A DNA stretch of 52,973 nucleotides from a virus. Lineage: Duplodnaviria; Caudoviricetes. The translations under genes were made by a program, and so were the position numbers. Numbering within the stretch: position 1 is the first letter of the stretch; the number at the start of each line of letters is the position of its first letter. Below, piece after piece: positions 5,910 through 40,522 of this stretch. The stretch lies in the IMG/VR virus record IMGVR_UViG_3300044576_000027, positions 1 to 52,973 of that record. The stretch is one strand, 5' to 3'. The notes beneath the pieces are model-generated. The model made no database searches, was not told where the DNA came from, and saw only the letters and a list, made by a program, of their open reading frames with translations.

Positions 5910-6725
5910 TTATTTTGTCTTCCTTTTTTTCTTATCAACAAGCGAAATGTATTTTTCTGGAATATTTAGCTTTATCTCTTTTGCCAACATCTCCATTGGA
6001 TACCAAGCAGCACCAGAATCTCTTAGTTTAAGGAAATTTTTCAAGCTTCTTAGATTAATTGTCCAAATAAGACTAACTGATGTATTTTCTGTAACTAATA
6101 CATGTTTTGCATAGTCACCAGCATTACGTTTAGCTTTTGAGTTCATCAACTTATCCATCTTGTTTTCTATTCTATCATTTGAAAAAATAATTTCAATATG
6201 ATTTTTAGTAAAACATTTCTCTTCAAAAGTCCTCTTGTCTTTGTTGACCAAATGTGATAATCCCAGATACACATAATCTAAATCAAGTGTATTGTTTATC
6301 GTTGCAAATACATCTCGATTATATAACTCTACTAAGTCCTTAAATAGGTAAATACCTCTTCTAGTATTGTATGCAATATAAAATGCATACAAGAGCATTG
6401 ATGATGTGTATCTTGTTGATTTTACGCTATATGAAGCTAGTCTATGTCTTGCTAACTCTTGTAGTACACTTCTAGGTATCATTTTAATTTCAAAAGTTAG
6501 ATTGATATGTTCAATGACACTCTCGTGATGATATGACCATACAAGTTCATCTAGAAGTTTAGATTCATCTACATCACATACACCATAGTATTTTTTATCT
6601 CTAATAAAATCACAATCACTTTTATCAAAGCTATCGTAGCAAGTTCTAGCTGCAACTTCACCAAGAAATAATGGTGTGGCATGTAGTAATGTGACTGATG
6701 GTTCTTTAAATGTATTTTGTTTCAT
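5910..6725 (-). CDS. thyX: FAD-dependent thymidylate synthase
   Basis: HHESVIEH, ELARHR-x7-STRY ThyX motif, INLRSLKNFLKLR. Confidence 0.95.
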   Translation of the reverse strand: MKQNTFKEPSVTLLHATPLFLGEVAARTCYDSFDKSDCDFIRDKKYYGVCDVDESKLLDELVWSYHHESVIEHINLTFEIKMIPRSVLQELARHRLASYSVKSTRYTSSMLLYAFYIAYNTRRGIYLFKDLVELYNRDVFATINNTLDLDYVYLGLSHLVNKDKRTFEEKCFTKNHIEIIFSNDRIENKMDKLMNSKAKRNAGDYAKHVLVTENTSVSLIWTINLRSLKNFLKLRDSGAAWYPMEMLAKEIKLNIPEKYISLVDKKKRKTK

Positions 6726-7308
6726 TTTCTTTCTCCTCTGCTAATCTATCTAATACCTTGCAGATCTCGTCTTCATCCCATGCAATAGAATCTTGAATTT
6801 GTTTTCCATACCTATTGTCTATAAGCTCTTTAACATAAGTTTCTCTAGGTACATACTTGACAATACCAATCTTAACTAAATATCTCCATGTTTCTCTTTC
6901 TCCTAAAATATCAGGATAATACATTTTAATAATCTTTCTAAGAGATTTAGTATCGTCAGAGTAAGTAACCAATTTGTGCTTTTGTTGCTCTTCAATAAGT
7001 TTTTGTTGATATTTGATTAGTTGTTCTGTTTGTTCTTCGATAAGTATTAGAAGATTTGCTCTAAGATTATCATTAAACTTGGAAGCAAACAACAAAGCTG
7101 TAAATTTATTCATTACAATAGTTTTATAAGTATTACCTCTTTTTGTTGTAAAGTCACGCTCATCATATGAGAGGAGCGTAAGAATATCTCCTGAAAGGTT
7201 ATCAAGCATCTTATTAAAATCTCTTTTAACATTATCATGTCTTTTACCTGTTGCATCAGCAAACATCTTCAATGTGTATCCGTCTGTTATGGCTGTTAAA
7301 TTATCCAT
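6706..7308 (-). CDS. Rha-family phage regulatory protein
   Basis: FADATGKRHDNVKRDF N-terminal Rha motif; C-terminal domain related to the paralogs. Confidence 0.75.
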   Translation of the reverse strand: MDNLTAITDGYTLKMFADATGKRHDNVKRDFNKMLDNLSGDILTLLSYDERDFTTKRGNTYKTIVMNKFTALLFASKFNDNLRANLLILIEEQTEQLIKYQQKLIEEQQKHKLVTYSDDTKSLRKIIKMYYPDILGERETWRYLVKIGIVKYVPRETYVKELIDNRYGKQIQDSIAWDEDEICKVLDRLAEEKENETKYI

Positions 7309-7336
7309 TTAGTCTCCTATTAGTTTATTTTGAAGC

Positions 7337-7391
7337 AAAAACTTCAATATGCATAAAGAATCGCCAAAAACTTTATACATATTGAAACTCT
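7337..7391 (-). ncRNA. leader hairpin with UUUUUGGCGAUU loop
   Basis: Stem TTCAATATGTATAAAG/CTTTATGCATATTGAA; loop matches those at 8343-8416 and 39022-39099. Confidence 0.55.
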
Positions 7392-7453
7392 TGTTGTTGC
7401 TTTATTCTCGGTGGTTCTTGAATAGATATTAACAGAACCATCGAATAAAAAAA

Positions 7454-8257
7454 CTATAATCCAATTTGCTCTTTATAATATTTAACTTTATCTTCCAGTT
7501 TCTTGATAAAGTCTAATGTTACAGTCACTTCTGGACATCCAGCTTCTTTATATGCATCAATAGCTTTTGCTACAGCTTCAGGTTTAAAATGAGGATTTCC
7601 ATACTTTCTCTCTGCATAACCAATAAAGCCATCTAAGCTTTCAGGAACATCTCTTTTTATTGTTACTTTTGGAGATGTCTCCAAGTATCCATACCATTGA
7701 AGAATATCATTAATGTCTTGTACAGTAAACTCTGTAACGTTTAATAACGTTTTAATGTTTGTAACAGATGTTGAACCATCATGAGCAAATCTCATACCAT
7801 TTTGTTTTAATCTTTCAATCTCAGATTCAAGTTCAGCGATCTTGTCAAGATATTTTGACTCCATCTCAATATACTCTTTTGCTAAAGCTTTATTAAGTTC
7901 CTCTTTCTTTTGAAGCTCAATCTCTTTCTCTTTTACAATTTGTTCCTTAATGAACTTATCACAAGCAATAGCAAAATACTCATTACAATATCTAGCAAAC
8001 GATATAACCAAATCTGGATGGATATAAGTACCCTGTGGTTTTCCCTTTCCAACAACAGTATATTTAAGGTCACTCATATTGAGGGAGCTAAGTTTTGCAA
8101 TTTTTTCTGCATATTCCTTTTCATTTCTCCAATAGTTATCCATACGCTTACCATACTTCTTAGCAACATCAGTCGCGTTAAGCCATAAGCCTTTCGAAAT
8201 AGCAAAAGATACATTCGTATCAAGCAGTGTTGTGTTAGTGAATTTTTGTAATTCCAT
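7454..8257 (-). CDS. KilA-N domain protein
   Basis: WLNATDVAKKYGK...QGTYIHPDLVISFARY KilA-N signature. Confidence 0.85.
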   Translation of the reverse strand: MELQKFTNTTLLDTNVSFAISKGLWLNATDVAKKYGKRMDNYWRNEKEYAEKIAKLSSLNMSDLKYTVVGKGKPQGTYIHPDLVISFARYCNEYFAIACDKFIKEQIVKEKEIELQKKEELNKALAKEYIEMESKYLDKIAELESEIERLKQNGMRFAHDGSTSVTNIKTLLNVTEFTVQDINDILQWYGYLETSPKVTIKRDVPESLDGFIGYAERKYGNPHFKPEAVAKAIDAYKEAGCPEVTVTLDFIKKLEDKVKYYKEQIGL

Positions 8258-8318
8258 ATAATTCCTTATACTTGTGTGCTAAACAAGATTTAAAAAATGT
8301 AAGTTGATTAATTTATAT

Positions 8319-8416
8319 GTGAGAGATTGGCGATTTCTCACTTAAACAACTTCAATATACCTATTTAGCAGAGAAATCGCCAAAAAACCTCTAAATAGGC
8401 ATACTGAAATTGTTTA
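8319..8416 (-). ncRNA. two-hairpin leader with loop-loop complementarity
   Basis: ~26-bp stem with G-U pairs; loop TTGGCGATTTCTC complementary to GAGAAATCGCCAA in the downstream GTGAGA/TCTCAC hairpin. Confidence 0.65.
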
Positions 8417-8417
8417 C

Positions 8418-8456
8418 ATAATTATACTCTATTGTTGATTCATTCTCATTGGTTCT
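8418..8456 (-). promoter_or_regulatory. cassette promoter repeat (GAACCA...TATAAT)
   Basis: 39 nt, one mismatch to 9575-9613; -10 box at 8421-8426. Confidence 0.7.
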
Positions 8457-8499
8457 TGAAGAATATTGATAGAACCATCGAGAATAGATTAAAACTTGG

Positions 8500-8695
8500 A
8501 TAGATAATATTCCAACTGTTCTAGCTACGAACAAAATTAATGTTTTAAAATCAAGAGATAGAGTTTTATGTTTTCTTATCGTTCCATTTACACTTTCTGA
8601 TTCAAATATTGACTGCTCAAATTGAAAAGCCAATAATTAGTTGCTCTATTCCACTTTCATGATAAAATTAATAAAAGATTAAATGTCGCATTGAT
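8500..8695 (-). pseudogene. degenerate Rha-family gene remnant
   Basis: Fragments NATFNL and TLSLDFKTLILFVAR resemble KATFNL and MVDFKTLVWFVTK of the intact paralogs; stops present and no RBS. Confidence 0.5.
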
Positions 8696-9410
8696 TTCTT
8701 TTAGCCTCTTCAATCTTTTCTTTATAGTATCTTGAAATTTGTTCAAATTCATCTACAAGTCTTTCATATTCTGATTTTATTGGTTTTTTGTTTTCAACCC
8801 ATTCTTTGTAAACCTTTTCTATAGTTTCTGGTAAAAAAGATGGAGTATTCCATTTCATTTTTCCAACAAATCCATCAAGTTCATCAGGAATTACTCTTTT
8901 AACAGTAACCTTTGCTTCTGTTCTAACAAAACCTTTCCAAACTAAAGCTGTCCAAATATCAGATTCTTTTGGAGCATCTTCATTTTGAAATGATTCCATA
9001 ATACATCTTCTAACTGTTGCGTGACCATCATCATACATTATTGGTTTTCTTGACTCTTTTACAGCTTCTTTCTTCTCTTTTTCTAGCTTTTCAAAAGCAA
9101 AGTTTATAACATTCATTCTCATATTCTCGTCAAATTTTGTCATTAGCCATAACATTGTTCTTAAATCTAGCGTAAATGTATTTATTGTTTCAATCTTTCC
9201 CTTACCTGTTTCTCTTTGTATTTTTTTGGGTACGACCGTAACGTACCCAATATTTTCTTCCGATAGTTTTGATATTGCAAGATTAAATGTTGCCTTCAGG
9301 TCACTGTGCCTTTTTCCATATTTATCTGCAATATCTTTTAATGTCATGGTAATACCTTGATCTGCAAGAAATTGCTCAGTAGGGCTTAGTTCAATTAATG
9401 ATTTACTCAT
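8679..9410 (-). CDS. Rha-family phage regulatory protein
   Basis: LKDIADKYGKRHSDLK; likely start ATG 9410 (SD AAAGGA) rather than 9482; C-terminus near-identical to 38289-38945. Confidence 0.75.
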   Translation of the reverse strand: MSKSLIELSPTEQFLADQGITMTLKDIADKYGKRHSDLKATFNLAISKLSEENIGYVTVVPKKIQRETGKGKIETINTFTLDLRTMLWLMTKFDENMRMNVINFAFEKLEKEKKEAVKESRKPIMYDDGHATVRRCIMESFQNEDAPKESDIWTALVWKGFVRTEAKVTVKRVIPDELDGFVGKMKWNTPSFLPETIEKVYKEWVENKKPIKSEYERLVDEFEQISRYYKEKIEEAKRNQCDI

Positions 9411-9455
9411 AGGTAATCCTTTCTGGACATTGAAATGTAATTTGATTTTTGAGTA

Positions 9456-9572
9456 GTGAAGATGTCGTCCAAAACACTTCACTTCGACATTTAAGTCAAC
9501 TCAGAGTTACCCATACTTTAAGTGTGAGGAGAAAATCTCCTCGAAGTGTCTTGGACGACTCTCAATTGACTT
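9456..9572 (-). ncRNA. two-hairpin leader with loop-loop complementarity (sequence-divergent)
   Basis: GTCGTCCAAGACACTTC in the first structure pairs with GAAGTGTTTTGGACGAC in the GTGAAG/CTTCAC hairpin. Confidence 0.6.
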
Positions 9573-9574
9573 TT

Positions 9575-9613
9575 ATAATTATACTCTATTGTTGCTTCAT
9601 TCTCATTGGTTCT
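9575..9613 (-). promoter_or_regulatory. cassette promoter repeat (GAACCA...TATAAT)
   Basis: Near-identical to 8418-8456. Confidence 0.7.
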
Positions 9614-9623
9614 GGAAAAGATA

Positions 9624-9959
9624 TTAATCTCTCTTCCATAACATTTCTCTATACACTCTCAAATGAAGATACGTTTTAAATCCAAGTTTACGATAGTAAC
9701 TCTCTAATTTATCTCCTAAGCAATTTAATCTAAGATATTGATATTTTCTTTGTAACTTTTTAACAAGCTTTGAACCATCACCTTTCTCTAAAGAAAATAG
9801 TCCATTGATTTGTACTATCTTATTTTTCTGATGATGTAATCCACAATATGCTCCTCCTAATTTTACATACCTGTCACTATATTGATTTTCATCAATAAAT
9901 TCTCTTTTATCTATTTTTTTTAGATGAAATAGATACTCATTTCTAGTTATTGTCTCCAT
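9624..9959 (-). CDS. GNAT-like acetyltransferase
   Basis: KGDGSKLV acetyl-CoA loop-like motif and YYRKLGF C-terminal motif. Confidence 0.6.
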   Translation of the reverse strand: METITRNEYLFHLKKIDKREFIDENQYSDRYVKLGGAYCGLHHQKNKIVQINGLFSLEKGDGSKLVKKLQRKYQYLRLNCLGDKLESYYRKLGFKTYLHLRVYREMLWKRD

Positions 9960-10030
9960 TGATACAAATCTCCTATTTTTTTATTAATATAAAATTGTAC
10001 CAAAATCTCTCTCTTCTCCAAAGAAAAAAA

Positions 10031-10070
10031 GAAAAAAAGAAGTAAGTAACTCCAAAAGGAGTCACTACTT
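10031..10070 (-). terminator. intrinsic terminator after the RNAP gene
   Basis: GTGACTCC-TTTT-GGAGTTAC stem followed by a T-rich tract on the minus strand. Confidence 0.6.
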
Positions 10071-11780
10071 CATACAGAGTCCTGAAAACTCTTTATTATT
10101 ACCATCATATTCAACAATAACTTTCTTTAAGTCTCTAATCAACTTAGGAGTCTTAGGTGAATACTCAGCTCCAATAGACTTCAAGTAATTTACCAATATA
10201 GATTTACGTTGATTATGCATATCTCTCATGTGTATCTCTGCATTGGTTCTTACATCATCAATTACATGTGGTAATGATAGTACTGCGTCATGCACTGGTA
10301 ATGCAAACTCAATGTCATCAATAGCTGATACAATTCTATCCATAAGTATAGAATCAAGTGAATGAATTACACAGGTGTATGAAAAATTTTGATGTTGTTT
10401 ATAATCTTTAGCTACAATAACATCTGTATTATTGAAGTACTTCATAATACCTGTCTCACTATCAATAGTAAAGTAATCATTCTTTTTACTGTCAATAGGT
10501 TTAGTCTTCTTGACTTCAACTCTAAAAGGTTCGCAATAATCTCCAAGAGACACTGTATATTCACCTTTGCTATTGCAGACTTCATGATACATTGAAGATT
10601 CTTTCAACAATGTATTCATTGCAGTTATAATACCATATCTACCTTTGGTTAATTCACGTTTTAATAATCTAAGTTGCTTATCAATCTCAGTTGTTCGTGG
10701 TTCATCGAAGTTACGATCATATAGTGATGATAATTTCTCTTGACTACCATAGAATGTTGCAGTAGCTAATTTAGCTATAGGTCTATCAACACCATCTATA
10801 TACCAAGGGTCAAGTAGTTTATCGTTATTTATAACATTGCCCCAAGTTAATAATCTCTCATCATTGGTTATTAGTGCAGTTATCGTTGAGAGTGACATAC
10901 TGAAATCACTTTCAAGCACTATATCCCATTCAACAGAACCACAAGCATAAAGAGTATCTAATTTACTATAGATACGTTCTAACCAAATATTTAGATATAA
11001 CTCATCACCAATAACTCTATTTTCATAACATCTCTTACCATCAGCAATTCTGTCTTCAAGATTATCAGTCTTATTACCAACTTCATTACTAATAAAGCAG
11101 TAGATGTTATTTAATGCAGATATTGAGTCTAATGTATATACTACAGGCTCTACTCTCATTAATGCTCTACCAAGTTTATAACCCATAGGATTTAAAATCT
11201 TATTCAAAGCATTTGGTATAGCTCTACCTCTACTATCAGTGTTACAACCATTCATAGAGTATTGCAAGTCATACTCTGCATAATGACCAATGATTGTAGC
11301 AACAACATCAAAGTAAGTATATTCAAACTCTTCAGCATACTCAATATATCCTCTTTTAATCATTTCAGATGCCATTTTATGAACAACATCATCAATGATT
11401 TGAGTCTTATATTTATTGAGCATATCTACATCAAATCTAAATAATTTGTTATATTGTTTAACAAATCCTTTTCTCTTGATACCCATATCTCTTAATCCAC
11501 TTGCAGTTTTAGTTAAGCATTCATCGGTGGTTCTATTATTGAGCATATATTTCTCTAGGTTCATAGCAAATTTTTCATCTTTGAAATATTCTCTAAAAGA
11601 TTCACTAGCTTCAACAGTTGCATAATTATATTTAACTTTAGATACTACTATGTTGTTGGCAATCAATTCTTTTAGGCAAATAATAAAATATTTTTGACCT
11701 AATTCTTTGATTGCATAAGGAGTTGATACAATAAGTCTTGGAGAGTTAATTAGCATATTGTAAAGTTTATTGTTTTTCAT
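10065..11780 (-). CDS. single-subunit (T7/N4 RNAPII-type) DNA-dependent RNA polymerase
   Basis: DSRGRA (DxRGR), motif A LESDFSMS, motif B RPIAKLATATFYGS, IHSLDS, motif C PVHDA. Confidence 0.85.
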   Translation of the reverse strand: MKNNKLYNMLINSPRLIVSTPYAIKELGQKYFIICLKELIANNIVVSKVKYNYATVEASESFREYFKDEKFAMNLEKYMLNNRTTDECLTKTASGLRDMGIKRKGFVKQYNKLFRFDVDMLNKYKTQIIDDVVHKMASEMIKRGYIEYAEEFEYTYFDVVATIIGHYAEYDLQYSMNGCNTDSRGRAIPNALNKILNPMGYKLGRALMRVEPVVYTLDSISALNNIYCFISNEVGNKTDNLEDRIADGKRCYENRVIGDELYLNIWLERIYSKLDTLYACGSVEWDIVLESDFSMSLSTITALITNDERLLTWGNVINNDKLLDPWYIDGVDRPIAKLATATFYGSQEKLSSLYDRNFDEPRTTEIDKQLRLLKRELTKGRYGIITAMNTLLKESSMYHEVCNSKGEYTVSLGDYCEPFRVEVKKTKPIDSKKNDYFTIDSETGIMKYFNNTDVIVAKDYKQHQNFSYTCVIHSLDSILMDRIVSAIDDIEFALPVHDAVLSLPHVIDDVRTNAEIHMRDMHNQRKSILVNYLKSIGAEYSPKTPKLIRDLKKVIVEYDGNNKEFSGLCMK

Positions 11781-11857: not shown

Positions 11858-12457
11858 TTAAATCTGTTCTTCTAAAGACTTCATATTGTCTCTAATTGTT
11901 TTAGCTTCAGCAAGTTCATCTTTAGCTTTCTCTAAAGCTTTATCTTCAGCTTTATTCCAAAGTTCAATATCAAACGATTTAGCTTCCGATTTAAGTACAT
12001 CAATAAGAACATCTAACTTTAGATGTTTCAATACTTCAATACTGGCTTCAATAGCTAACTCTTCATCTGGTTCTAAACAATCAAATATCTCTTTAGCAAT
12101 GTCATGTTCATCTTTAACGACAAAACTATAATAACCATTAGATTCACGAACTTCTTCTAGCAATTCTGGATCAATATTGTTAAGTACTTCAAGTTGAGCG
12201 TCATTGTTATCAAGTTGTAAATCAATATCAAACTTTTCATCTTTGTTTTGTGGACGGTTATATGCTCTTGCAATTAACACAAGAAGTCCATAAGTTTTAC
12301 CAAATGAGAATGATTTACTGAATGCTCTAGGTCTAGCACTTAACAATCTAAAGTCTCTTGGTAGTTCCAAATTAGCTACATTGTAAACTTCTTTTGCTAA
12401 GTCAGTTAGTTTATTGAAAGCGTTTGTTTGCTTAATTGTCATTTTAATTCTTGCCAT
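11858..12457 (-). CDS. early hypothetical protein
   Basis: Likely start ATG 12457 (MARIK) with AAAGGA SD; acidic C-terminal half. Confidence 0.7.
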   Translation of the reverse strand: MARIKMTIKQTNAFNKLTDLAKEVYNVANLELPRDFRLLSARPRAFSKSFSFGKTYGLLVLIARAYNRPQNKDEKFDIDLQLDNNDAQLEVLNNIDPELLEEVRESNGYYSFVVKDEHDIAKEIFDCLEPDEELAIEASIEVLKHLKLDVLIDVLKSEAKSFDIELWNKAEDKALEKAKDELAEAKTIRDNMKSLEEQI

Positions 12458-12545
12458 AATATGTCCTTTGATAATTGGTATAGTACGAATATGCATAAAT
12501 GAATATGCATAAATAGAAAGTTGATATAGGTAACACGATTGTTAC

Positions 12546-12560
12546 CTAAATAGATTACAC
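12546..12560 (-). promoter_or_regulatory. putative phage-RNAP promoter GTGTAATCTATTTAG
   Basis: One of five copies upstream of minus-strand early genes. Confidence 0.6.
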
Positions 12561-12615
12561 CAAAAGTTTATAGTCTTTATGGATTGGACTTAGGTTACTT
12601 GTCTGCATGGTTCTA

Positions 12616-12798
12616 TTAATATTTGAAACCATTCCAAGATGATTTGAGTTTGAATTTAATGTATATCTTTTTATTCAACTCGTATTGAGTATGGATTACT
12701 AAATTTGGATTGTCATACATAAATAAGTTAACTTCGTTAATGTCATTGAATACTTTATTGATAAACATCTGTTTCTCCTTAATTATATTTAGCTTCAC
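12616..12798 (-). CDS. small hypothetical protein
   Basis: Short ORF; the internal ATG (MFINK) has an AAGGAG SD and is probably the true start. Confidence 0.5.
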   Translation of the reverse strand: MKLNIIKEKQMFINKVFNDINEVNLFMYDNPNLVIHTQYELNKKIYIKFKLKSSWNGFKY

Positions 12799-13033
12799 AA
12801 TATTCAGAAGCTTGTTTTACTCTAAAGTCAATTAGTTCATATCTATCCATATCTGAACTCATTTCAACTTCTAAATCAGTTAACTCATAGTCTTCTATAC
12901 AATTTGCTATTAATTCTGACTTTGTTAATTGTTGCTGATTATCTTCAATTTGTGGTTCTTTAGGTAATGTATTTGAACTACAAGCATTGATTAGTATAGC
13001 AATTATGAATGATAGTGTAAATTGTTTTGACAT
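12779..13033 (-). CDS. putative lipoprotein
   Basis: Signal peptide with lipobox LINAC. Confidence 0.7.
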   Translation of the reverse strand: MSKQFTLSFIIAILINACSSNTLPKEPQIEDNQQQLTKSELIANCIEDYELTDLEVEMSSDMDRYELIDFRVKQASEYCEAKYN

Positions 13034-13079
13034 TATGTATCCTTTAATAAAAATTGGTTTAGGTAAATATATTTATTAC

Positions 13080-13094
13080 CTAGATAAATTACAC
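13080..13094 (-). promoter_or_regulatory. putative phage-RNAP promoter (variant GTGTAATTTATCTAG)
   Basis: Two mismatches to consensus; upstream of the lipoprotein gene. Confidence 0.5.
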
Positions 13095-13304
13095 CATTAC
13101 TGGCACGGAAATTGGCTTTTTAGAGGTTAAAATTGTTGTAGTGTAGGTTTGTATTGGAATTGATGTAAAAATGGTTATTTGGTATGTGTATGACATCTGT
13201 GTGGTTGGTATTTTGAAATGTCTATTGATTTGTGGTTGTTGAATGCTTCTGGTTCCCACAACTGTGGGATTTGGAGAGGTTAACAGAATTTAACAGGTGT
13301 TAAT

Positions 13305-13351
13305 TGATTAAAAAATAAGCAGTTTTTTGATTAAAAAATAAGCAGTTTTTT
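13305..13351. repeat. tandem direct repeat TGATTAAAAAATAAGCAGTTTTT x2
   Basis: Seen directly. Confidence 0.85.
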
Positions 13352-13622
13352 GAACCACAGATGTTCTATTTTTTCATCAAGTTGTTCATATATACTAGAT
13401 TAATCTATACAGGTAACAATGCTTGTTTTATGGGCTTTAGAGAGGTAGAAAGTTAACGTTTGAAGCAACTTTCTATTTGATAAGTTAATGAATTCGTTAA
13501 CTTTCTAAGAAATTTTTAAGAACCACAAGGTGTTATATATATATTAATATATTATATATAAGGGATTAAATTTACCTAAAAATGCTTATTGATACCGAGA
13601 TTGTTGGATTTAAACGTGTTTT

Positions 13623-13713
13623 TTTACGAACAAGATTCTGTTTCTAAATGGGTAGTTACGAACAAGATATTGTTTCTAGAGTAGTGTTTACGAACAAGAT
13701 TCTGTTTCTAAAT
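13623..13713. repeat. three iteron-like repeats TTACGAACAAGATTCTGTTTCTA
   Basis: Copies at about 13623, 13656 (variant) and 13688, 32-33-bp period. Confidence 0.8.
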
Positions 13714-13792
13714 TTACAATGATGTTGACTTTATGAAGACCTTTGTGATAGGATGAAGTTGCAATAATAATAAAATCACAAAGGATAACTGA

Positions 13793-14263
13793 ATGAAGAC
13801 AGACAACAATGTATCTGAAATGGAGTATAACGTATTTCCACTTAAACAAAAGAAGAATCGAGGAGCAACAAAAGTGTATCTAACATTGAAAGACAAAGTC
13901 GAAATAATGAAAGAATGTGGTGATGCATCACTTATACTGTTTGATTTTTATTTGACAAAAACATCATATATGAATGGAACAGAGAAAGGTTATGACTATA
14001 TGGATGATGCTAAAACTGCTAAATCACTTGGTTGGAGCAAATTTAAAGTCAGAGACAATAGACAGAAACTCATGAAGAATAATTGGATGAAAATTGTCAA
14101 AGGACGTTATAACAATGGTAAGAAAATCATTAAGACATTTCTTGGTAAAGAGGTCGTTGAGAAAGAATTAAGCTTTGAAAGCAATACTCCAATCAGAGAA
14201 GAAGAAGTAAGTAGCAAAGTCAAAACATTTGCATCAATGTTTCCAAGCATGCAAACTAAATAA
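13793..14263 (+). CDS. winged-helix DNA-binding protein (possible replication initiator)
   Basis: DAKTAKSLGWSKFKVRDNRQKLMKNNWM HTH-wing pattern; AAGGA SD; downstream of the repeats. Confidence 0.55.
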   Translation: MKTDNNVSEMEYNVFPLKQKKNRGATKVYLTLKDKVEIMKECGDASLILFDFYLTKTSYMNGTEKGYDYMDDAKTAKSLGWSKFKVRDNRQKLMKNNWMKIVKGRYNNGKKIIKTFLGKEVVEKELSFESNTPIREEEVSSKVKTFASMFPSMQTK

Positions 14264-14600
14264 CAACAGAACCACATCATATAACAAAACTCCTCACCTT
14301 TTAAAGGAAGCTGGTGCGAACATGAAGAGGAATTATTTGTTCCATATTCTTGACGAAGCTCTGCGTTAGCAGAGTGCCGTTTAGCGAACGAAGTGAGTAG
14401 GCATCAAGAATCTGGAAAAATAACTTCTGATGAAGTGTTTCAGCACCAAAGCTGACGTTTAAGATTTTTGCAGATAGCACAACTAAAAACCTCGTAGAGC
14501 CGTCGGAGACATAACATATTTATAGAACCATTAGGTGTTAACTTCATCTGTGTGGTTCTATGAAGTTCATATAAATTTGCATTTTTTTATCAAAAAACCC

Positions 14601-14628
14601 TTGACAAATGTATCAAAAATGTTATAAT
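14601..14628 (+). promoter_or_regulatory. consensus sigma70 promoter
   Basis: TTGACA-N16-TATAAT with a TG extension. Confidence 0.75.
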
Positions 14629-14831
14629 TGACTAGTCAATTGACAAGGACGTATGTCCCAATTGTCAACTAGTCAAAATTTAAAATATTGAATATAAGAT
14701 TCTTTTTATGAGCTACCAACTCAAACTCTTGAACACATAGTTTATCTGTGTAGTTCATAAAAGGAATCAATGAGAGTTTAGAAGTTGGTAGCTCTATAAC
14801 TCCATTAAATTATATTCCTAAGAAAAATTAA

Positions 14832-15071
14832 TTGTTAGATATAATTGAGTTCTCTAAATACGAGAAAACAGTCATTGTTATAGCTCATACAATATATTAT
14901 TCAGGTAAAGGAGTTGTACCTGAAGTTGATTTTCAATGGTCAAATCATCTTGGTTGCAGACTCCATTTACACAAAGATATACTAAAGACGAAGACAAACT
15001 GTTATCTTGAAGTTGAAAAGCTTAGAGGCTATAAAGGTGATGATGTTATTGAACATTGGATGAGAGATTAG
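14832..15071 (+). CDS. hypothetical protein
   Basis: 79-aa ORF with a TTG start and weak RBS. Confidence 0.35.
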   Translation: MLDIIEFSKYEKTVIVIAHTIYYSGKGVVPEVDFQWSNHLGCRLHLHKDILKTKTNCYLEVEKLRGYKGDDVIEHWMRD

Positions 15072-15194
15072 AACAAATACTAAGTTGATACACTCTCTTT
15101 CATCAGTGGTTCTAAGATTATGTTTCCCTTATAAACCTATTGACTTATGTGTTATGTGCAATAGAGAAAAAATAATAAGTATAATCCAAAAGGA

Positions 15195-15404
15195 CTATAC
15201 TTTTATAAAGGTTAATACTCCACTACGAGTATCTAACTTCTCATATACAGTATTACTAGCTACATGTAATAGTTTGCCATTTGCATTTGTAAAACCTGAT
15301 TTCATCATTAATGCCCAAGCTTCTCTTTTATTTTTTGTATTCGTAGAGATGATGCTAGCTTTACCTGCAATTGTTTGTAATGTTTGTAATTTAATTGTTT
15401 TCAT
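15195..15404 (-). CDS. early hypothetical protein
   Basis: AAAGGA SD; preceded by the promoter repeat. Confidence 0.7.
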   Translation of the reverse strand: MKTIKLQTLQTIAGKASIISTNTKNKREAWALMMKSGFTNANGKLLHVASNTVYEKLDTRSGVLTFIKV

Positions 15405-15428
15405 AATAAGTCCTTTAAATTTAATTTG

Positions 15429-15443
15429 CTAAATAGATTACAC
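15429..15443 (-). promoter_or_regulatory. putative phage-RNAP promoter GTGTAATCTATTTAG
   Basis: Exact copy. Confidence 0.6.
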
Positions 15444-15452
15444 TAATATTTT

Positions 15453-15491
15453 GAAAAAAATAAAATACCAACTATCTAATGACAGTTGGTA
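15453..15491 (-). terminator. intrinsic terminator
   Basis: TACCAACTG/TAGTTGGTA stem plus T tract on the minus strand. Confidence 0.55.
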
Positions 15492-15574
15492 GGAATGACA
15501 TAAATCCGTAGAAGAATTGTACAGAATAGTAAGCAAGTACAGTAGTAAAAAACAGTATGTATAATTGTTTTCAT
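15476..15574 (-). CDS. 32-aa hydrophobic early peptide
   Basis: ATG 15574 with AAAGGA SD directly after the promoter repeat; below the ORF-track cutoff. Confidence 0.5.
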   Translation of the reverse strand: MKTIIHTVFYYCTCLLFCTILLRIYVIPTNCH

Positions 15575-15599
15575 AGCTAATCCTTTATAATATTTTTAT

Positions 15600-15614
15600 C
15601 TAAATAGATTACAC
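15600..15614 (-). promoter_or_regulatory. putative phage-RNAP promoter GTGTAATCTATTTAG
   Basis: Exact copy. Confidence 0.6.
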
Positions 15615-15686
15615 TAATGCTCTGAATTGTCTTATCAGATGGTTCTGTTAACTGTGTGTATTGTAAAAAAGAATTACCAACAAGTC

Positions 15687-15956
15687 TTATGACTTGTTAG
15701 CTTTTAACTCTTTTAGCTCACGTTTAAGCTTTTCAAGTTCAATATCTGTTTCAAGAGCATCAATCTCAAAATCTTTTTGAACAGATTTCTTAAACTCTTC
15801 AGTATATACTTTTGCAACTGATGTTAAATCTCTAGTAATGTCGATAACGTCATTGGCTAAGTTTAGAGCATTTCTTGCTGTATCAAATACTTCAATAGTT
15901 GTATTTACTACTTCAGTAGTTAGCTTTCTTCTTGGTCGTCTAGTTGTTGTTTGCAT
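15687..15956 (-). CDS. early coiled-coil protein
   Basis: AAAGGA SD; preceded by the promoter repeat. Confidence 0.7.
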   Translation of the reverse strand: MQTTTRRPRRKLTTEVVNTTIEVFDTARNALNLANDVIDITRDLTSVAKVYTEEFKKSVQKDFEIDALETDIELEKLKRELKELKANKS

Positions 15957-15987
15957 AGTATGTCCTTTATATTTTTATTTGCTTATG

Positions 15988-16002
15988 CTACATAGATTAC
16001 AC
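15988..16002 (-). promoter_or_regulatory. putative phage-RNAP promoter (GTGTAATCTATGTAG)
   Basis: One mismatch to consensus. Confidence 0.55.
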
Positions 16003-16226
16003 TCATGTTGGTAGTCTGTAGAGTTATGGACTTGTCTATGTATTAGCATGATTGCTGTGTGTTATCTGCATGGTTCTGTAGTTGTAGAGGATTAGATGTA
16101 TGGCTTGTTTAGAACCACAGGTATAGTTAGGTATAGGGGGGGTATTTTTTGGTTTTATAAATCGAGTTTTTTGGATAAGGGGGTCGAAATATTTCTAGTA
16201 GGTTGGGCTGAAAAGTGGGTGAACTA

Positions 16227-16357
16227 CCATAATAATATATATGAATACAAGAATATATATGAACCTCCATAATAGTATATACCTACCACAAGAATATATA
16301 CATCCACAATAATATATATTGAACCACAATAATATATTGAAACACAATAATATATAT
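16227..16357. repeat. about seven degenerate tandem repeats, consensus CCACAATAATATATAT
   Basis: Seen directly, ~18-21-nt period. Confidence 0.75.
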
Positions 16358-18201: not shown

Positions 18202-19095
18202 ATGAAACAAGATAATGTAGGTGAAAAAAAAGATAACTTTGAAGTGACTAGATTTTCAAGATTAAGCAATGATGCTATAGAGACGCTTAAGCAGAACTTA
18301 CCAAATAAATACTCAGTAGCTTTAACTGATGAGATATACTCTTTAATTGACAAGATGAAAGAAGAAAATTCTATGAATGACTCAGATGCAGTATCATCTA
18401 TATTAGAGAATTTTACATTTGTAAAAGATATAAAGGGATTAACTTTTGATAGATACTGTGTAGCATTAAGGTTTGTGTCATTGGTTCTTAATGGTGTTAC
18501 TCAGATTGATGCCTGGAAGATAATATTTCCTGAAAAAACAAAGCGTGGATACAGTCAAGAACAGATGTTGAAATGGTCAACTGCTTATGCTAATACGAAG
18601 TTGGTTTCAACGTTGAAAGCTAGAATGATGGTATCATTTTCTATACAATATTCACATTTTAGACATGCAGCGATACAAAAAGAGTACGATTTGATGATGG
18701 GAATACCATCTGTTTGTAAGATACCAAAATATAAAAGAACCAAAGATGGAAAGATTAAGCTAGATAAAGATGGTCAAAAGCAAATATTAAGAACGAAACA
18801 TGGAAATATTATGTATGAAGAGGTGTATCAGGTTGTTACTCCTATGGTTCAACATCAAGCTGCTCAAACTATATTGGAGATTACTAAACCTAAAGAAGAG
18901 TCTGAAATTGATATAAATGTTGCAATATCTGTTGATGAAACAAATGAAAAGATGAAAATAAAAAGAACCATGATGGAAATAGCACAGGCACAAAGAGAGA
19001 GACTTGAAAGAGGCGAAAGCATAGATGATGTCCAGAGGATAGGTGATATTATAGAAACATCTCTTGTTGATGACAAGGAGGATGAAGATGAGTAA
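18202..19095 (+). CDS. terminase small subunit (N4 gp69-like)
   Basis: Immediately upstream of the large terminase; ATG 18202 with AAGGAG SD. Confidence 0.6.
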   Translation: MKQDNVGEKKDNFEVTRFSRLSNDAIETLKQNLPNKYSVALTDEIYSLIDKMKEENSMNDSDAVSSILENFTFVKDIKGLTFDRYCVALRFVSLVLNGVTQIDAWKIIFPEKTKRGYSQEQMLKWSTAYANTKLVSTLKARMMVSFSIQYSHFRHAAIQKEYDLMMGIPSVCKIPKYKRTKDGKIKLDKDGQKQILRTKHGNIMYEEVYQVVTPMVQHQAAQTILEITKPKEESEIDINVAISVDETNEKMKIKRTMMEIAQAQRERLERGESIDDVQRIGDIIETSLVDDKEDEDE

Positions 19096-22265: not shown

Positions 22266-22670
22266 ATGACTTGGAGAAGAGTAAAAAGCTTAACAAATTC
22301 ACTTCTTTCTGGTGATACTCCATTTCCGATGGATGATGAAGAAAGTGCGATAGCATTGCTAGAATATGCATTAGAACAAGTAGCAATTGAAAGCTATGTT
22401 TCTATATTGATTAGTGATACTCCAGTGACAAATAACACAATAAGAGTAAATGATGATGGGAAATACGTTAGAAGACCAAATTTACCATCAGATGATAATG
22501 ACATAATAGATATTGACAAAGGACTTGTATTTGCAGTTTGTAGATTGATGGCTTCATATCTAAGTAGAGAAAATAAACAAATTCACTATTTAATTGCAAA
22601 GTCATCTATGGAAAAATATGAAGAGATGATATGTGGAATACGTGAAGCACAAAAGGACGGTATTTTATGA
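22266..22670 (+). CDS. putative head-tail adaptor
   Basis: Position after the terminase (N4 gp67 slot); helical 134 aa. Confidence 0.45.
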   Translation: MTWRRVKSLTNSLLSGDTPFPMDDEESAIALLEYALEQVAIESYVSILISDTPVTNNTIRVNDDGKYVRRPNLPSDDNDIIDIDKGLVFAVCRLMASYLSRENKQIHYLIAKSSMEKYEEMICGIREAQKDGIL

Positions 22671-38103: not shown

Positions 38104-38107
38104 TTCT

Positions 38108-38130
38108 AAACCCCTAAATATAGGGGTTTT
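38108..38130 (+). terminator. intrinsic terminator after the MCP
   Basis: AAACCCCTA-AATA-TAGGGGTTTT. Confidence 0.75.
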
Positions 38131-38222
38131 AATCTACTATCAAACATCAAATCATAAAAAATTACAGAATATAAGTCGATTCAAAATGAAATCATGGTAC
38201 AATTCATTACAAAAACAACATC

Positions 38223-38287
38223 TTAGAGGTTACCAAGCCAGACTTCTGGTTACTTCTGCGTCTCTCTGACAACGAGGTAACCTCTAA
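38223..38287 (+). ncRNA. leader stem-loop before the Rha gene
   Basis: TTAGAGGTTACC/GGTAACCTCTAA perfect 12-bp stem with an internal AGCCAG/CTGGTT hairpin; TGGTACAAT -10 at 38195. Confidence 0.5.
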
Positions 38288-38288
38288 A

Positions 38289-38945: not shown

Positions 38946-38956
38946 CTACCTCTCCA

Positions 38957-38993
38957 TCATTGGTTCTCATAATATCTAGAACCACAAAGATAA
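38957..38993 (+). repeat. cassette boundary direct repeat with inverted TGGTTC-N12-GAACCA
   Basis: 37 nt, two mismatches to 39907-39943. Confidence 0.8.
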
Positions 38994-39021
38994 GATTAAA
39001 CTACAATAAGGTATAATTCAT

Positions 39022-39122
39022 TTAAACAACTTTTATATGCTCAGTTATGAAGTTTTTGGCGAGGCTTTCTGCATGGCTGAGTATATGAAAGTTGTTTAAG
39101 TGAAAGCCTTGCCATCTTTCAC
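39022..39122 (+). ncRNA. two-hairpin leader with loop-loop complementarity
   Basis: Long stem; loop TGGCGAGGCTTTC pairs with GAAAGCCTTGCCA in the GTGAAAG/CTTTCAC hairpin; homologous to 8319-8416. Confidence 0.65.
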
Positions 39123-39180
39123 ACAAAAATAATCAACTTAAAATTTTAAAATCTTATTTGCTATAAATATAAGGATTATT

Positions 39181-39895
39181 ATGCAAAGCGATATTATCAA
39201 ATTAGATAACAATGGTGCTGCTTATGCAGTTGTAAAAGATATAGCTGAGTATTGTGAGGTAGATGTTAAAGCTACAAGACAATTGGTTTTAAATCATATT
39301 GATGAGTTCAATGATGTTACAAATAAGTTGCAAAATAAAATTGGTGGCATTTCAAATGGTGCTTCCAAAGATTCGTTTAAGGTTCCAGAATTGAAACTAA
39401 TTAAAAAAAGAGGAACATCAAGAGATGAAGTTGATTGGTCAAAAACAAAACTTTATCAACCTCACATAGAATTGTTGCTTATGATGATGAAAAAATACAA
39501 AGATAGTTAGAAGTCATAAAGTTGACGTTATTGTCGATCTATTTGCCTCAAAATTTGAACTAATACAAACAAAACTTGAAAATCAAAAACTACTAATTGA
39601 AAAACAAAATACTGAGTTAGTTTTACTTGAAAATAAAGTTAATCAACTTGAAACTGATAAATTTTATGATTGGGAAGAAGAGTACTCATCTGTATCAAGA
39701 TTTATCAAAGAAAATAAACTAAAGATTACATCTACTGAATTACTTGATAAACTTGAAGAAGCTAAGCAAATTGAAACTAAGCAAATTACTAGGATGGTTA
39801 GATTTTTAACAGAAGAATCTGATGGTAGAGTTTCAAAGAAAGGTACATTGTTGTTTAAGAATAGTTTACTCAAAAAATTATCTGACACTATCTAA
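39181..39895 (+). pseudogene. Rha-like regulator interrupted by a +1 frameshift in an A6 run
   Basis: Removing one A at 39490-39495 gives LLLMMMKNTKIVRSHK... and an open frame to TAA 39893-39895. Confidence 0.7.
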
Positions 39896-39906
39896 CTCAT
39901 TTTTAA

Positions 39907-39943
39907 TCATTGGTTCTCAAAATATCGAGAACCACAAAGATAA
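39907..39943 (+). repeat. cassette boundary direct repeat; TGCTATAAT promoter follows
   Basis: Copy of 38957-38993. Confidence 0.8.
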
Positions 39944-39983
39944 AACAAACTATGCTATAATAATATCAATCAAGGAGTAACAG

Positions 39984-40346: not shown

Positions 40347-40370
40347 GTTTTTGTTTTGTATAATAAATAT

Positions 40371-40461
40371 GTTACTGCTATCAATTTTTATTTCTCCTAT
40401 AAAAGTTTAGTCTCCTATAAGCAAAAAAAGATTTAGTTTTCATTGTATTGGTGGCAGTAAC
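40371..40461 (+). ncRNA. candidate sRNA with a double anti-Shine-Dalgarno loop
   Basis: TATAAT at 40359-40364; 15-bp terminal stem with G-U pairs; TCTCCTATAA twice in the loop. Confidence 0.55.
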
Positions 40462-40522
40462 GCCTTATTTCAAAAAAAATATGATAAAATATATAAAAAT
40501 AAAAACACTTTGGAGACAAAAT

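What the first reader, a model, noticed from the sequence alone, without database searches (positions are those of the whole stretch)
7337..9572. Family of two-hairpin, loop-loop complementary RNA leaders on Rha/KilA-N genes (left cluster)
Seen: each regulator gene has a structured 5' leader. At 8416-8319(-) a ~26-bp stem exposes UUGGCGAUUUCUC, and a second hairpin (GUGAGA/UCUCAC) exposes the exact complement GAGAAAUCGCCAA. At 9572-9456(-) the architecture is the same but the pairing sequence is unrelated (GUCGUCCAAGACACUUC versus GAAGUGUUUUGGACGAC in GUGAAG/CUUCAC). At 7391-7337(-) only the first hairpin remains, with the same UUUUUGGCGAUU loop, so it could act in trans on the 8319 target. 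Stem mismatches are mostly G-U compatible on the coding strand. Established analogy: P1 C4 and P4 CI antisense RNAs control antirepressor operons through leader pairing. Inference: a diversified RNA-switch system with cassette-specific lock-and-key loops, unexpected in an N4-like phage and possibly undescribed.
Basis: partly seen in the sequence, partly recalled or inferred. Interest (0 to 1): 0.85.

Follow-up and report, generated by a model that had tools for sequence, protein, structure and literature searches.

The report
Lock-and-key RNA leaders on phage regulator genes
An uncultivated N4-like phage puts a long RNA hairpin in front of several of its Rha and KilA-N regulator genes, and the hairpin loop matches a sequence just downstream, with a different matching pair for each gene; this looks like a new kind of gene-specific RNA switch, but no experiment has tested it.

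Summary
Three full leaders (A 9572-9456, B 8416-8319, both minus strand; D 39022-39122, plus strand) and one truncated copy (C 7393-7336) follow copies of one promoter module. Each full leader has a 5' hairpin whose loop ("key") is complementary to a segment directly downstream ("lock").

- **Chance:** at most 1 of 2000 shuffles reaches the observed pairing for any copy.
- **RNA level:** the helices hold 144 Watson-Crick and 14 G-U pairs, with no A-C, on the gene strand. That points to RNA rather than DNA.
- **Second phage:** contig L130 carries the same hairpin (34.7 bits, E 8e-7) before an orthologous gene (51% identity). Its key and lock are unrelated in sequence but still complementary (0 of 2000 shuffles).
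- **Known families:** no Rfam family matches, C4 included.

In B, D and L130 the lock starts 0-2 nt from the base of a 26-28 bp helix, so one molecule's key and lock cannot meet. I infer action between transcripts, or after the hairpin is cut. In logic this resembles P4 CI, P1 C4 and Salmonella IsrK. Transcription, processing and any regulatory effect are untested.

The parts
9578..9606 (-). Leader A promoter-like site (-35, 17-nt spacer, consensus -10). It places the start of the RNA at the base of A's first hairpin.
   Evidence: 10 of 12 consensus positions. Part of the repeated promoter module.
9493..9572 (-). Leader A, hairpin HP1: 14-bp stem (9572-9559 / 9506-9493) closing a 52-nt multiloop. 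The multiloop holds the key (9559-9543) and an inner 7-bp hairpin (9542-9526).
9456..9482 (-). Leader A, hairpin HP2: 6-bp stem and 15-nt loop, containing the lock (9480-9464).
   Evidence: 17-bp key:lock complement with 1 G-U. 0 of 5000 shuffles reach it.
8679..9410 (-). Gene served by leader A: Rha/anti-repressor-like protein, 243 aa.
   Evidence: PHROG anti-repressor families. 47-48% identical to the Rha protein at 38289-38945.
8451..8476 (.). Short palindrome or hairpin (6-nt arms, 14-nt spacer) at the upstream edge of B's promoter module.
8421..8449 (-). Leader B promoter-like site.
   Evidence: 10 of 12 consensus positions.
8343..8416 (-). Leader B, hairpin HP1: 26 bp with a 22-nt loop carrying the key (8383-8371).
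   Evidence: Covariance model score 118 bits.
8319..8341 (-). Leader B, hairpin HP2 with the lock (8339-8327).
   Evidence: 13-bp perfect complement to the key. 0 of 5000 shuffles reach it.
8300..8310 (-). Conserved box downstream of HP2 that mimics the base of HP1's 5' arm. It is identical in B and D, and pairs with the base of the 3' arm if the 5' arm is removed.
   Evidence: Sequence comparison. Folds of 5'-shortened RNAs.
7454..8257 (-). Gene served by leader B: KilA-N domain protein, 267 aa.
   Evidence: Pfam KilA-N, E 6e-14.
7413..7439 (.). Palindrome or hairpin of the promoter module upstream of C.
7336..7393 (-). Leader C: truncated copy with a 23-bp hairpin and a 12-nt loop carrying the shared core. 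No HP2, and the -10 box of its module is deleted.
   Evidence: Covariance model 29.9 bits, E 1e-4.
6706..7308 (-). Gene after leader C: Rha protein, 200 aa.
   Evidence: Pfam Phage_pRha.
38962..39017 (+). Leader D promoter module: palindrome 38962-38983 and a consensus -10 at 39012-39017.
39022..39122 (+). Leader D (right cluster): HP1 of 28 bp (39022-39049 / 39072-39099) with the key at 39057-39069. HP2 is at 39100-39122 with the lock at 39102-39114.
   Evidence: 120 bits. 0 of 5000 shuffles.
39181..39895 (+). Gene served by leader D. It is read in two overlapping frames (39181-39510 and 39491-39895).
38198..38287 (+). Leader F: a related -10 and start region followed by a 12-bp hairpin (38223-38234 / 38276-38287) before the Rha gene 38289-38945. 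It has no key:lock pair.
   Evidence: 601 of 2000 shuffles reach its best loop-to-downstream duplex. Pfam Rha.
39912..39961 (+). Module E: the same palindrome and promoter but no leader, before ORF 39984-40346.

Best explanation
These are structured 5' leaders of mRNAs, selected at the RNA level. They belong to a portable unit of promoter plus leader that is attached to paralogous Rha and KilA-N type regulator genes of an N4-like phage.

The RNA probably starts at the base of a long hairpin (HP1). The HP1 loop carries a 13-30 nt key. The complementary lock lies directly 3' of HP1. In the window's copies it sits in a small hairpin (HP2) whose four basal stem pairs are the same in A, B and D.

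In B, D and L130 the lock begins 0-2 nt from the base of a 26-28 bp helix. Key and lock of one molecule therefore cannot meet while HP1 stands. The most likely mode of action is between molecules. Leaders made earlier would bind the lock on later or nascent transcripts of the same cassette, either as whole leaders or as a hairpin fragment released by a double-strand-specific nuclease such as RNase III. Binding would open HP2 and change the translation, stability or elongation of that mRNA. That gives each regulator gene a private, dose-dependent feedback channel.

Shown here: the structures, the complementarity, its covariation within and between phages, and the strand asymmetry.
Inferred: the transcription start, action in trans or after processing, and the direction of the effect.
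For: 1. RNA-level helices. Of 159 pairs, 144 are Watson-Crick, 14 G-U, 0 A-C and 1 G-G on the gene strand. This holds in both clusters although they lie on opposite strands. Sense against antisense fold energies are B -39.2/-30.2, C -23.4/-14.4 and D -45.5/-27.9.
2. Covariation in HP1 and HP2. Between B and D, 32 pairs are 100% paired and 7 changed on both sides; slid controls give 27-50% paired. Across B, D and L130, 71 of 72 cells are paired, 7 of 24 pairs changed on both sides, 0 of 500 shuffles reach this, and slid controls give 33-47%.
3. Key:lock complementarity is beyond chance in every full copy: 0 of 5000 shuffles for each of A, B and D, and 0 of 2000 for L130.
4. The key:lock pair differs between cassettes yet stays complementary. 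Cognate duplexes are -21.7 to -31.2 kcal/mol and non-cognate ones -4.0 to -14.0. Meanwhile the base of HP1, the four basal HP2 pairs and the downstream box are nearly identical between B and D.
5. An orthologous gene in another phage contig (51% identity) has the same hairpin (34.7 bits, E 8e-7) with an unrelated key and lock. There the lock also pairs with the stretch just upstream of the start codon (-16.5 kcal/mol, 4 of 2000 shuffles). That suggests a competition between key and ribosome-binding region for the lock.
6. Consensus -10 boxes end 5-7 nt before HP1 in A, B and D, and likewise in L130.
7. No terminator-like site follows HP1 or HP2.
8. Precedents for leader-derived RNAs acting on their own transcript: P4 CI and IsrK (passages and abstract of PMC4825925), and P1 C4 controlling Ant (passages of PMC8201110).
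Against: - No transcript data. No sequencing run was listed.
- Only three full copies, one truncated copy and one orthologue are known.
- Copy A folds differently. Its key:lock helix is the predicted minimum-energy fold in cis, and it scores only 9.4 bits (E 6) with the model built from B and D.
- In B and D the lock shows no pairing with the translation start region (1347 and 855 of 2000 shuffles do as well). So there is no obvious route from lock binding to expression.
- A scan of the whole window finds other sites with duplex energies close to the cognate one. For the B loop, 22441-22495 (+) gives -22.7 against -21.7 for the cognate lock. For the D loop, 14324-14363 (-) gives -22.6 against -24.0. 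It is adjacency and perfect pairing, not energy alone, that single out the lock.
- Templated mutation within quasi-palindromes could create complementarity without selection.
- The steric argument rests on textbook A-form geometry, not on a model.
Confidence: 0.45

Rival explanations
1. A purely cis-acting element for processing and stability. HP1 would be a 5'-terminal stabiliser and/or an RNase III site. The key:lock complement and the downstream box would only provide alternative folds of the same molecule, before and after cleavage or during folding. There would be no action between molecules and no cassette specificity in function.
For: - HP1 starts at the predicted 5' end and is 26-28 bp of uninterrupted duplex.
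- After a simulated cut, the 3' product refolds into a new 5'-terminal stem formed by the base of the 3' arm and the downstream box, enclosing HP2.
- In A the key:lock helix is the predicted minimum-energy fold of a single molecule.
- Leader F and the hairpin in L128 are 5' or intergenic hairpins without any key:lock pair.
Against: - It does not explain why key and lock diverge together between cassettes and between phages while the flanks stay conserved.
- In B and D the key:lock fold is 12-19 kcal/mol worse than the two hairpins, and it cannot form with HP1 intact.
Confidence: 0.2
2. A portable repeat (a miniature palindromic element travelling with a promoter) that has spread among the paralogous genes. 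Its hairpin would be kept by its mode of spread or by templated repair, with no regulatory role for key and lock.
For: - There are five or six copies of the promoter module, with or without a leader, in front of unrelated N-terminal domains.
- One copy is decayed (C).
- L130 carries the B/D-type hairpin before an A-type gene, which shows that leader and gene reassort.
Against: - The upper stem and the key:lock pair differ between copies instead of being conserved as recognition sites at the ends would be.
- The G-U against A-C asymmetry (14 to 0) indicates selection on the transcript.
- No transposase or target duplication was seen, though I did not look for one systematically.
Confidence: 0.1
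3. A small RNA or decoy whose real partner is elsewhere. The HP1 loop or HP2 would bind a host or phage RNA or protein, for example a defence or RNA-processing factor. The adjacent complement would be a built-in antidote or folding chaperone.
For: - The shared 7-nt core recurs in B, C and D and, swapped, in A, and occurs nowhere else in the window.
- The four basal HP2 stem pairs are the same in A, B and D.
- Other sites in the phage reach similar duplex energies.
Against: - L130 lacks the core and the HP2 stem yet keeps key:lock complementarity.
- No known RNA family matches.
- No partner was identified.
Confidence: 0.1
4. A DNA-level signal: a cruciform or single-strand hairpin used as a promoter, origin or operator. 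This would be relevant because N4-type polymerases use hairpin or single-stranded templates.
For: - The phage is N4-like.
- The arms are the longest inverted repeats in the window.
- Orientation follows the divergent gene clusters, which could also follow replication direction.
Against: - All 14 non-Watson-Crick wobble pairs are G-U on the gene strand and would be A-C on the other strand. A cruciform or a dimeric operator should keep both strands matched.
- The spacing and sequence of key and lock vary between copies.
- Consensus bacterial-type promoters directly precede the hairpins.
Confidence: 0.05

Closest known systems
Satellite phage P4 CI RNA (immunity factor)
   Same: A hairpin RNA derived from an untranslated leader carries a sequence complementary to sites in the same transcript. 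It acts as an antisense RNA on that transcript (passage in PMC4825925).
   Different: - CI has targets both upstream and downstream and causes premature termination in a lysogen. Here only a downstream lock is seen, in a phage with N4-like structural genes.
- No sequence or structure match.
- Processing is unknown.
P1/P7 C4 antisense RNA of the immI operon (Rfam C4 and c4-a1b1; family names recalled)
   Same: It is encoded on the same strand, upstream of an anti-repressor gene whose expression it controls (passages in PMC8201110). P1/P7 specificity through matched loop and target changes is recalled, not read here.
   Different: - No Rfam match at the gathering score or at E up to 10.
- The lock is not at a ribosome-binding site in B or D.
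- There is one key instead of two loops.
- HP1 is a 26-28 bp hairpin at the 5' end.
Gifsy-1 IsrK (Salmonella)
   Same: A short RNA made from the start of an operon binds, in trans, the long transcript from the same promoter and switches on translation, ultimately controlling phage regulators (abstract and passages of PMC4825925). L130's arrangement of key, lock and start-codon-proximal mimic fits this logic.
   Different: IsrK's short form is made by a terminator. Here no terminator-like site follows HP1, so a short form would need processing. There is no sequence similarity.
RNase III processing hairpins and 5'-terminal stabiliser hairpins of phage mRNAs (T7 early RNAs, lambda N leader; recalled)
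   Same: A long uninterrupted duplex at the very start of the mRNA.
   Different: Those have no loop sequence matched to an adjacent target, and no cassette-specific covariation.
   Same: Loop-to-loop recognition between RNA molecules, with specificity set by matched loop sequences that covary between relatives.
   Different: Plasmid antisense RNAs are transcribed from the opposite strand, and the packaging RNA is not an mRNA leader. Here both partners lie on one transcript.

Membership tests
Rfam C4 antisense RNA / c4-a1b1 | Match to the family covariance model at its gathering score | tested here: not met
   0 matches to any of 4227 families in the whole window. At E up to 10 on 7200-9700 there are 8 weak matches, none to C4-type families.
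Rfam C4 antisense RNA / c4-a1b1 | Loop(s) complementary to target sites on the same transcript | tested here: met
   Key:lock of 13-17 bp in A, B and D and about 30 nt in L130, beyond shuffles.
Rfam C4 antisense RNA / c4-a1b1 | Target overlaps the ribosome-binding site of the next ORF (feature recalled) | tested here: not met
   The lock lies about 60-70 nt upstream of the start codon in A, B and D. It shows no significant pairing to the start region in A, B or D (248, 1347 and 855 of 2000 shuffles).
Rfam C4 antisense RNA / c4-a1b1 | Maturation by RNase P (feature recalled) | not testable with these tools
   No RNA data. No run was listed.
P4 CI RNA | Complementary sites both upstream and downstream of the hairpin RNA (PMC4825925 passage) | tested here: not met
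   HP1 starts at the predicted 5' end. Only a downstream lock was found.
IsrK-type dual-isoform RNA | Short isoform ended by a terminator inside the leader (PMC4825925 abstract) | tested here: not met
   In 6500-10200 the only terminator-like sites are 9226-9250 (+) and 10066-10045 (-). In 38000-40600 the only one is 38129-38108 (-). None lies after HP1 or HP2.
RNase III substrate / 5' stabiliser hairpin | About two turns or more of uninterrupted duplex at the 5' end of the mRNA | tested here: met
   26 bp (B), 28 bp (D) and 23 bp (C) without non-standard pairs. The -10 box ends 5-7 nt before the stem.
RNase III substrate / 5' stabiliser hairpin | Cleavage or stabilisation in vivo | not testable with these tools
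   No RNA data.
Intrinsic terminator / attenuator | G+C-rich hairpin followed by a run of U | tested here: not met
   Not reported by the scan at HP1 or HP2.
Miniature inverted-repeat mobile element | Terminal inverted repeats conserved in sequence between copies | tested here: inconclusive
   The base of the stem is conserved (19 of 20 positions between B and D). The upper stem is not (17 of 32 positions), though it is still paired. Target duplications were not examined.

The most novel reading that the evidence does not exclude
This is a previously undescribed class of self-addressed riboregulators. A promoter-proximal hairpin would present a hypervariable key to a lock on sister transcripts of the same gene. 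A phage carrying several paralogous Rha and KilA-N regulators would then run several mutually orthogonal RNA feedback loops side by side. Key and lock would evolve under diversifying selection, as immunity or incompatibility determinants do, while the scaffold stays fixed.
Probability: 0.3. Interest if true: 0.8.

Novelty: new variant of a known kind. Interest (0 to 1): 0.62.

Why it matters
If it works as proposed, this would be a natural set of orthogonal RNA lock-and-key switches on one scaffold. That is useful as a model for how RNA-RNA specificity diversifies, and as parts for synthetic circuits.

It would also show that phages with N4-like structural genes, normally regarded as strictly lytic and studied mostly for their RNA polymerases, use leader-encoded antisense control of anti-repressor-type genes. 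That mode of control is so far known from temperate elements (P1, P4, Gifsy-1).

It also gives a concrete RNA motif, absent from Rfam, that can be searched for in viral metagenomes.

Tried and rejected
**Known RNA families.** Rfam at gathering scores on the whole window gave nothing. A permissive scan of 7200-9700 gave only weak miRNA, snoRNA and Cyano-1 matches on long hairpins.

**Relatives by DNA.**
- blastn of 6700-9700 and of leader B against 50,697 phage records gave no match, or only short chance matches at E 3-9.
- Exact-pattern scans of viral contigs returned 3 and 5 loci. All lie in unrelated coding sequence.
None of the 118 examined has the long A+T-rich stem, so I judged them chance matches.

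**Relatives by protein.**
- KilA-N protein: none in viral, metagenome or genome contigs.
- The 571-aa neighbour: none.
- Capsid protein alone: none.
- Capsid alignment: two loci at 46-47% identity. The covariance model's best score there is 12.8 bits, E 0.21. L128 has a 21-bp hairpin after the capsid gene, but I could not show homology.
- Rha alignment in genome contigs: none.
- A-protein against phage records: no match.
- KilA-N against phage records: only about 36% identity, N-terminal domain only.
- Closer relatives exist as proteins: KilA-N at 45-68% identity and capsid at 73-79%.

**Sequencing runs.** None was listed, and no RNA holder was listed.

That left a degenerate search for the HP1 stem undone.

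**Ideas considered and dropped.**
- Leader peptides: the short frames across HP1 are not conserved; B has an in-frame stop (read).
- Intrinsic terminators.
- tRNA-like or RNase P-type ends (no support).
- Leader F as a lock-and-key member (601 of 2000 shuffles).
- Lock pairing with the ribosome-binding site in A, B and D.

**Literature.** Three full-text searches found no description of such leaders. That is a narrow search, not proof of absence. No supplementary files were consulted.
Full report
**What the window is**

The window is a whole IMG/VR virus record of 52,973 bp with 30% G+C, estimated 61% complete. Its major capsid protein is about 33% identical to those of N4-like phages over 95-98% of its length. 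One relative is named by its source an N4-gp56 family capsid protein. Portal, terminase, helicase and primase genes are present. The label 'N4-like' is therefore reasonable.

The finding covers three genes on the minus strand:
- Rha (6706-7308)
- a KilA-N protein (7454-8257)
- a Rha/anti-repressor-like protein (8679-9410)

These three, together with a fourth protein at 38289-38945, share a C-terminal domain.

**The observation**

- **Leader B** has a 26-bp hairpin (HP1, 8416-8343) with a 22-nt loop. One base later comes a 6-bp hairpin (HP2, 8341-8319). Thirteen loop bases (the key, 8383-8371) are the perfect complement of 8339-8327 (the lock). The lock spans four bases of the HP2 stem and nine of its loop.
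- **Leader A** has a 17-bp key:lock pair (9559-9543 with 9480-9464) and an HP2 whose four basal stem pairs match B's. Its HP1 is only 14 bp and closes a 52-nt multiloop.
- **Leader C** is a 23-bp hairpin (7393-7336) with a 12-nt loop and no HP2.
- **Leader D**, a fourth full copy, lies in the right-hand cluster on the plus strand (39022-39122).
- **Significance:** these arms are among the longest inverted repeats of the whole window (ranks 1, 2, 9, 12 and 15 of 63 pairs). The folds lie 5-7 standard deviations below shuffles. Key:lock energies are reached by 0 of 5000 shuffles each, and by at most 1 of 2000 when 70 nt downstream are used.

**A repeated promoter-plus-leader unit**

Alignment shows one module in five places (A, B, C, D and E at 39905-39965). 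It has three parts: a short palindrome with 6-nt arms, a conserved stretch that includes a -35-like hexamer, and a consensus -10 box.

- A and B score 10 of 12 as sigma-70-type promoters.
- The -10 box ends 5-7 nt before HP1 in A, B and D. The RNA would therefore begin at the base of the hairpin. This is an inference; no transcript data exist.
- In C the -10 box and the base of the stem are deleted.
- E has the promoter but no leader.
- A sixth, more distant unit (F, 38198-38287) has a similar -10 and start region and a 12-bp hairpin before another Rha gene, but no key:lock pair.

A covariance model built from B and D was run over the window without filters. It returned 41 matches at E up to 10. 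The top five are D (120 bits), B (118), their antisense strands (44 and 39) and C (29.9 bits, E 1e-4). A scores only 9.4 bits (E 6). No further copy stands out.

**RNA rather than DNA**

In the eleven helices counted (HP1, HP2 and key:lock of A, B and D, HP1 of C, and A's inner hairpin), 159 pairs comprise 144 Watson-Crick, 14 G-U, 0 A-C and one G-G, read on the gene strand. The left cluster is on the minus strand and D on the plus strand, so the asymmetry follows the direction of transcription. If the selected object were duplex DNA or a cruciform, G-T and A-C should be equally frequent. At least one G-U is shared by descent between B and D, so the count is slightly less than 14 independent events. 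Sense RNAs fold 9-18 kcal/mol better than antisense in B, C and D. In A the difference is only 1.9.

**Covariation among paralogues**

- Between B and D, all 32 pairs of HP1 and HP2 stay paired. Seven changed on both sides and four on one side. Sliding the partners by 1-3 columns gives 27-50% paired and at most one double change.
- Divergence is uneven. The base of the stem (19 of 20 positions), the HP2 stem (10 of 12) and an 11-nt box downstream of HP2 are nearly identical. The upper stem (17 of 32), the loop (12 of 24) and the HP2 loop (4 of 11) have diverged. Keys and locks changed together.
- Cognate key:lock duplexes are -21.7 (B), -24.0 (D) and -27 to -31 (A) kcal/mol. Non-cognate combinations are -4 to -14. 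C's loop prefers B's lock, at -12.5 to -15.2.

A's pairing sequence is not unrelated to B's. The core of the B, C and D keys recurs in A's lock with one extra base. Its complement recurs in A's key. The two partners have swapped places. Swapping is neutral for RNA pairing. It would not be neutral for an oriented protein site.

**A second phage**

Most searches for relatives failed (see the tried-and-rejected field). The last viral scan used an alignment of the A-protein and its paralogue. It found one contig, L130, encoding a 51%-identical orthologue.

- Directly upstream, the B/D model scores 34.7 bits (E 8e-7).
- An extended -10 box is followed by a 27-28 bp HP1 (L130 2327-2412; two mismatches and one G-U) with a 30-nt loop.
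- Across B, D and L130, 71 of 72 cells in the 24 shared pairs are paired. Seven pairs changed on both sides, no shuffle of 500 reaches this, and slid controls give 33-47%.
- The loop is complementary to the 32 nt immediately after HP1 (-26.3 kcal/mol, 0 of 2000 shuffles). This sequence is unrelated to any of the window's keys, with cross-duplexes of -6.5 to -11.4.
- In L130 the lock also pairs with the stretch just upstream of the start codon (-16.5 kcal/mol, 4 of 2000 shuffles). The same test is not significant in A, B or D (248, 1347 and 855 of 2000).
- The whole 9.8-kb record holds only this one copy.

L130 carries a B/D-type hairpin before an A-type gene. Leaders and genes therefore reassort.

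**How it may work**

In B, D and L130 the lock begins 0-2 nt after the last pair of a 26-28 bp helix, while the key sits at the far end of that helix. With A-form geometry (recalled: about 2.8 Å rise per pair, so roughly 70-80 Å), the two cannot pair within one molecule while HP1 stands. HP1 will form before the lock is transcribed.

The alternative fold without HP1 is 12-19 kcal/mol worse in B and D. It is better only in A, at -48.8 against -41.0.

The simplest reading is that key and lock meet between molecules, or after HP1 has been cut. A 26-28 bp perfect duplex is a plausible RNase III substrate (general knowledge, not tested). After a simulated cut, the downstream product refolds: the conserved box pairs with the base of the old 3' arm and encloses HP2. 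This would explain why the box, the base of the stem and the basal HP2 pairs are conserved.

Binding of a key to HP2 would open its 6-bp stem. In L130 it would compete with the pairing between lock and start region, and so could switch translation on. That resembles how short IsrK activates the long isrK transcript (abstract of PMC4825925). In B and D the consequence is unclear; it could be decay, elongation or translation. I therefore commit only to 'cassette-specific RNA-RNA feedback on the regulator's own mRNA', at about 45% confidence. I leave the sign of the effect open.

**Rivals**

- A purely cis element for processing and stability (20%) explains HP1, leader F and the refolding. It does not explain the coordinated divergence of key and lock.
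- A selfish portable repeat (10%) fits the modular spread and the decayed copy C. It does not fit the strand asymmetry or the variable upper stem.
- A small RNA or decoy with another partner (10%) fits the shared core and the alternative sites of similar energy in the window. But L130 keeps key:lock pairing without that core.
- A DNA-level signal (5%) is disfavoured by the 14 to 0 G-U against A-C count.

**Comparison with known systems**

In logic the closest are leader-derived, same-strand antisense RNAs:
- P4 CI, which is processed from an untranslated leader and pairs with sites on the same transcript (passage of PMC4825925)
- P1/P7 C4, which controls the anti-repressor Ant (passages of PMC8201110)
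- IsrK

Membership fails where it could be tested:
- No Rfam model matches.
- There is no upstream target, because HP1 is at the predicted 5' end.
- The lock is not at the ribosome-binding site in B or D.
- No internal terminator exists.

So it works like these systems but is not one of them. I file it as a new variant of a known kind.

**Limits**

- There are no transcript data.
- Only five informative sequences come from two uncultivated contigs.
- The searches for relatives were by exact pattern or close protein identity.
- The covariance model was run only on the window, L128, L129, L130 and the L130 record.
- One planned degenerate scan was not run.
- Three literature searches found no description of such leaders. 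That is weak evidence for novelty.

Noticed in passing
window 7413-7439, 8451-8476, 38962-38983, 39912-39933: A short palindrome (6-nt arms, 10-15 nt spacer) sits just after the stop codon of the preceding gene, at the upstream edge of four promoter modules. A looser pattern with 5-nt arms gives 7 matches against 0.18 expected. The variable spacer suggests a hairpin, as an RNA 3' end or a single strand, rather than a fixed operator. No run of U follows it.
   Followed up: partly
window 39181-39895: The gene behind leader D is split into two overlapping frames (39181-39510 and 39491-39895). The overlap lies at a run of A. This could be a frameshift, a sequencing error, or programmed slippage.
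   Followed up: partly
window 8480-8680: The 200-nt stretch between the A gene and B's promoter module translates in one frame to something resembling a fragment of a Rha N-terminal domain. It may be a remnant of an earlier cassette. This was judged by eye only.
   Followed up: no
window 12445-16357: A region poor in long ORFs holds several repeat families: 26-37 nt repeats at 12445-16009, three 27-nt copies spaced 32 nt apart at 13623-13713, and three copies at 16226-16357. Several 24-30 nt inverted repeats lie here too (13446-13507, 14330-14427, 14613-14768). It may be an early-promoter or origin region between the divergent gene clusters.
   Followed up: no
window 27968-28171: A tandem duplication of 102 nt (78% identity) lies inside ORF 27284-28216.
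   Followed up: no
window 19064-22249: The large terminase ORF is unusually long (1061 aa). PHROG terminase profiles match it in separate segments (136-448, 272-550, 548-1039), so it may be a fusion or carry an insertion.
   Followed up: no
L128 2549-2645: In a phage contig with a 46%-identical capsid gene, a 21-bp hairpin with a 52-nt branched loop follows the capsid gene and precedes a 225-aa ORF of unknown family. It is analogous in place and shape to leaders A and F, but homology was not shown (11.6 bits, E 0.4).
   Followed up: partly
L130 421-614: About 190 nt are 67-68% identical to a region annotated in T4-type phages under nrdD, and in one Salmonella phage under a thymidylate synthase gene. 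It could be a shared intron or mobile segment, or a conserved gene fragment.
   Followed up: no
window 9226-9250 (+) and L130 2627-2691 (+): A G+C-rich hairpin lies inside the coding region of the A gene (9 bp, reported as terminator-like on the opposite strand). Another lies inside its L130 orthologue (18.3 bits as a partial model match).
   Followed up: no
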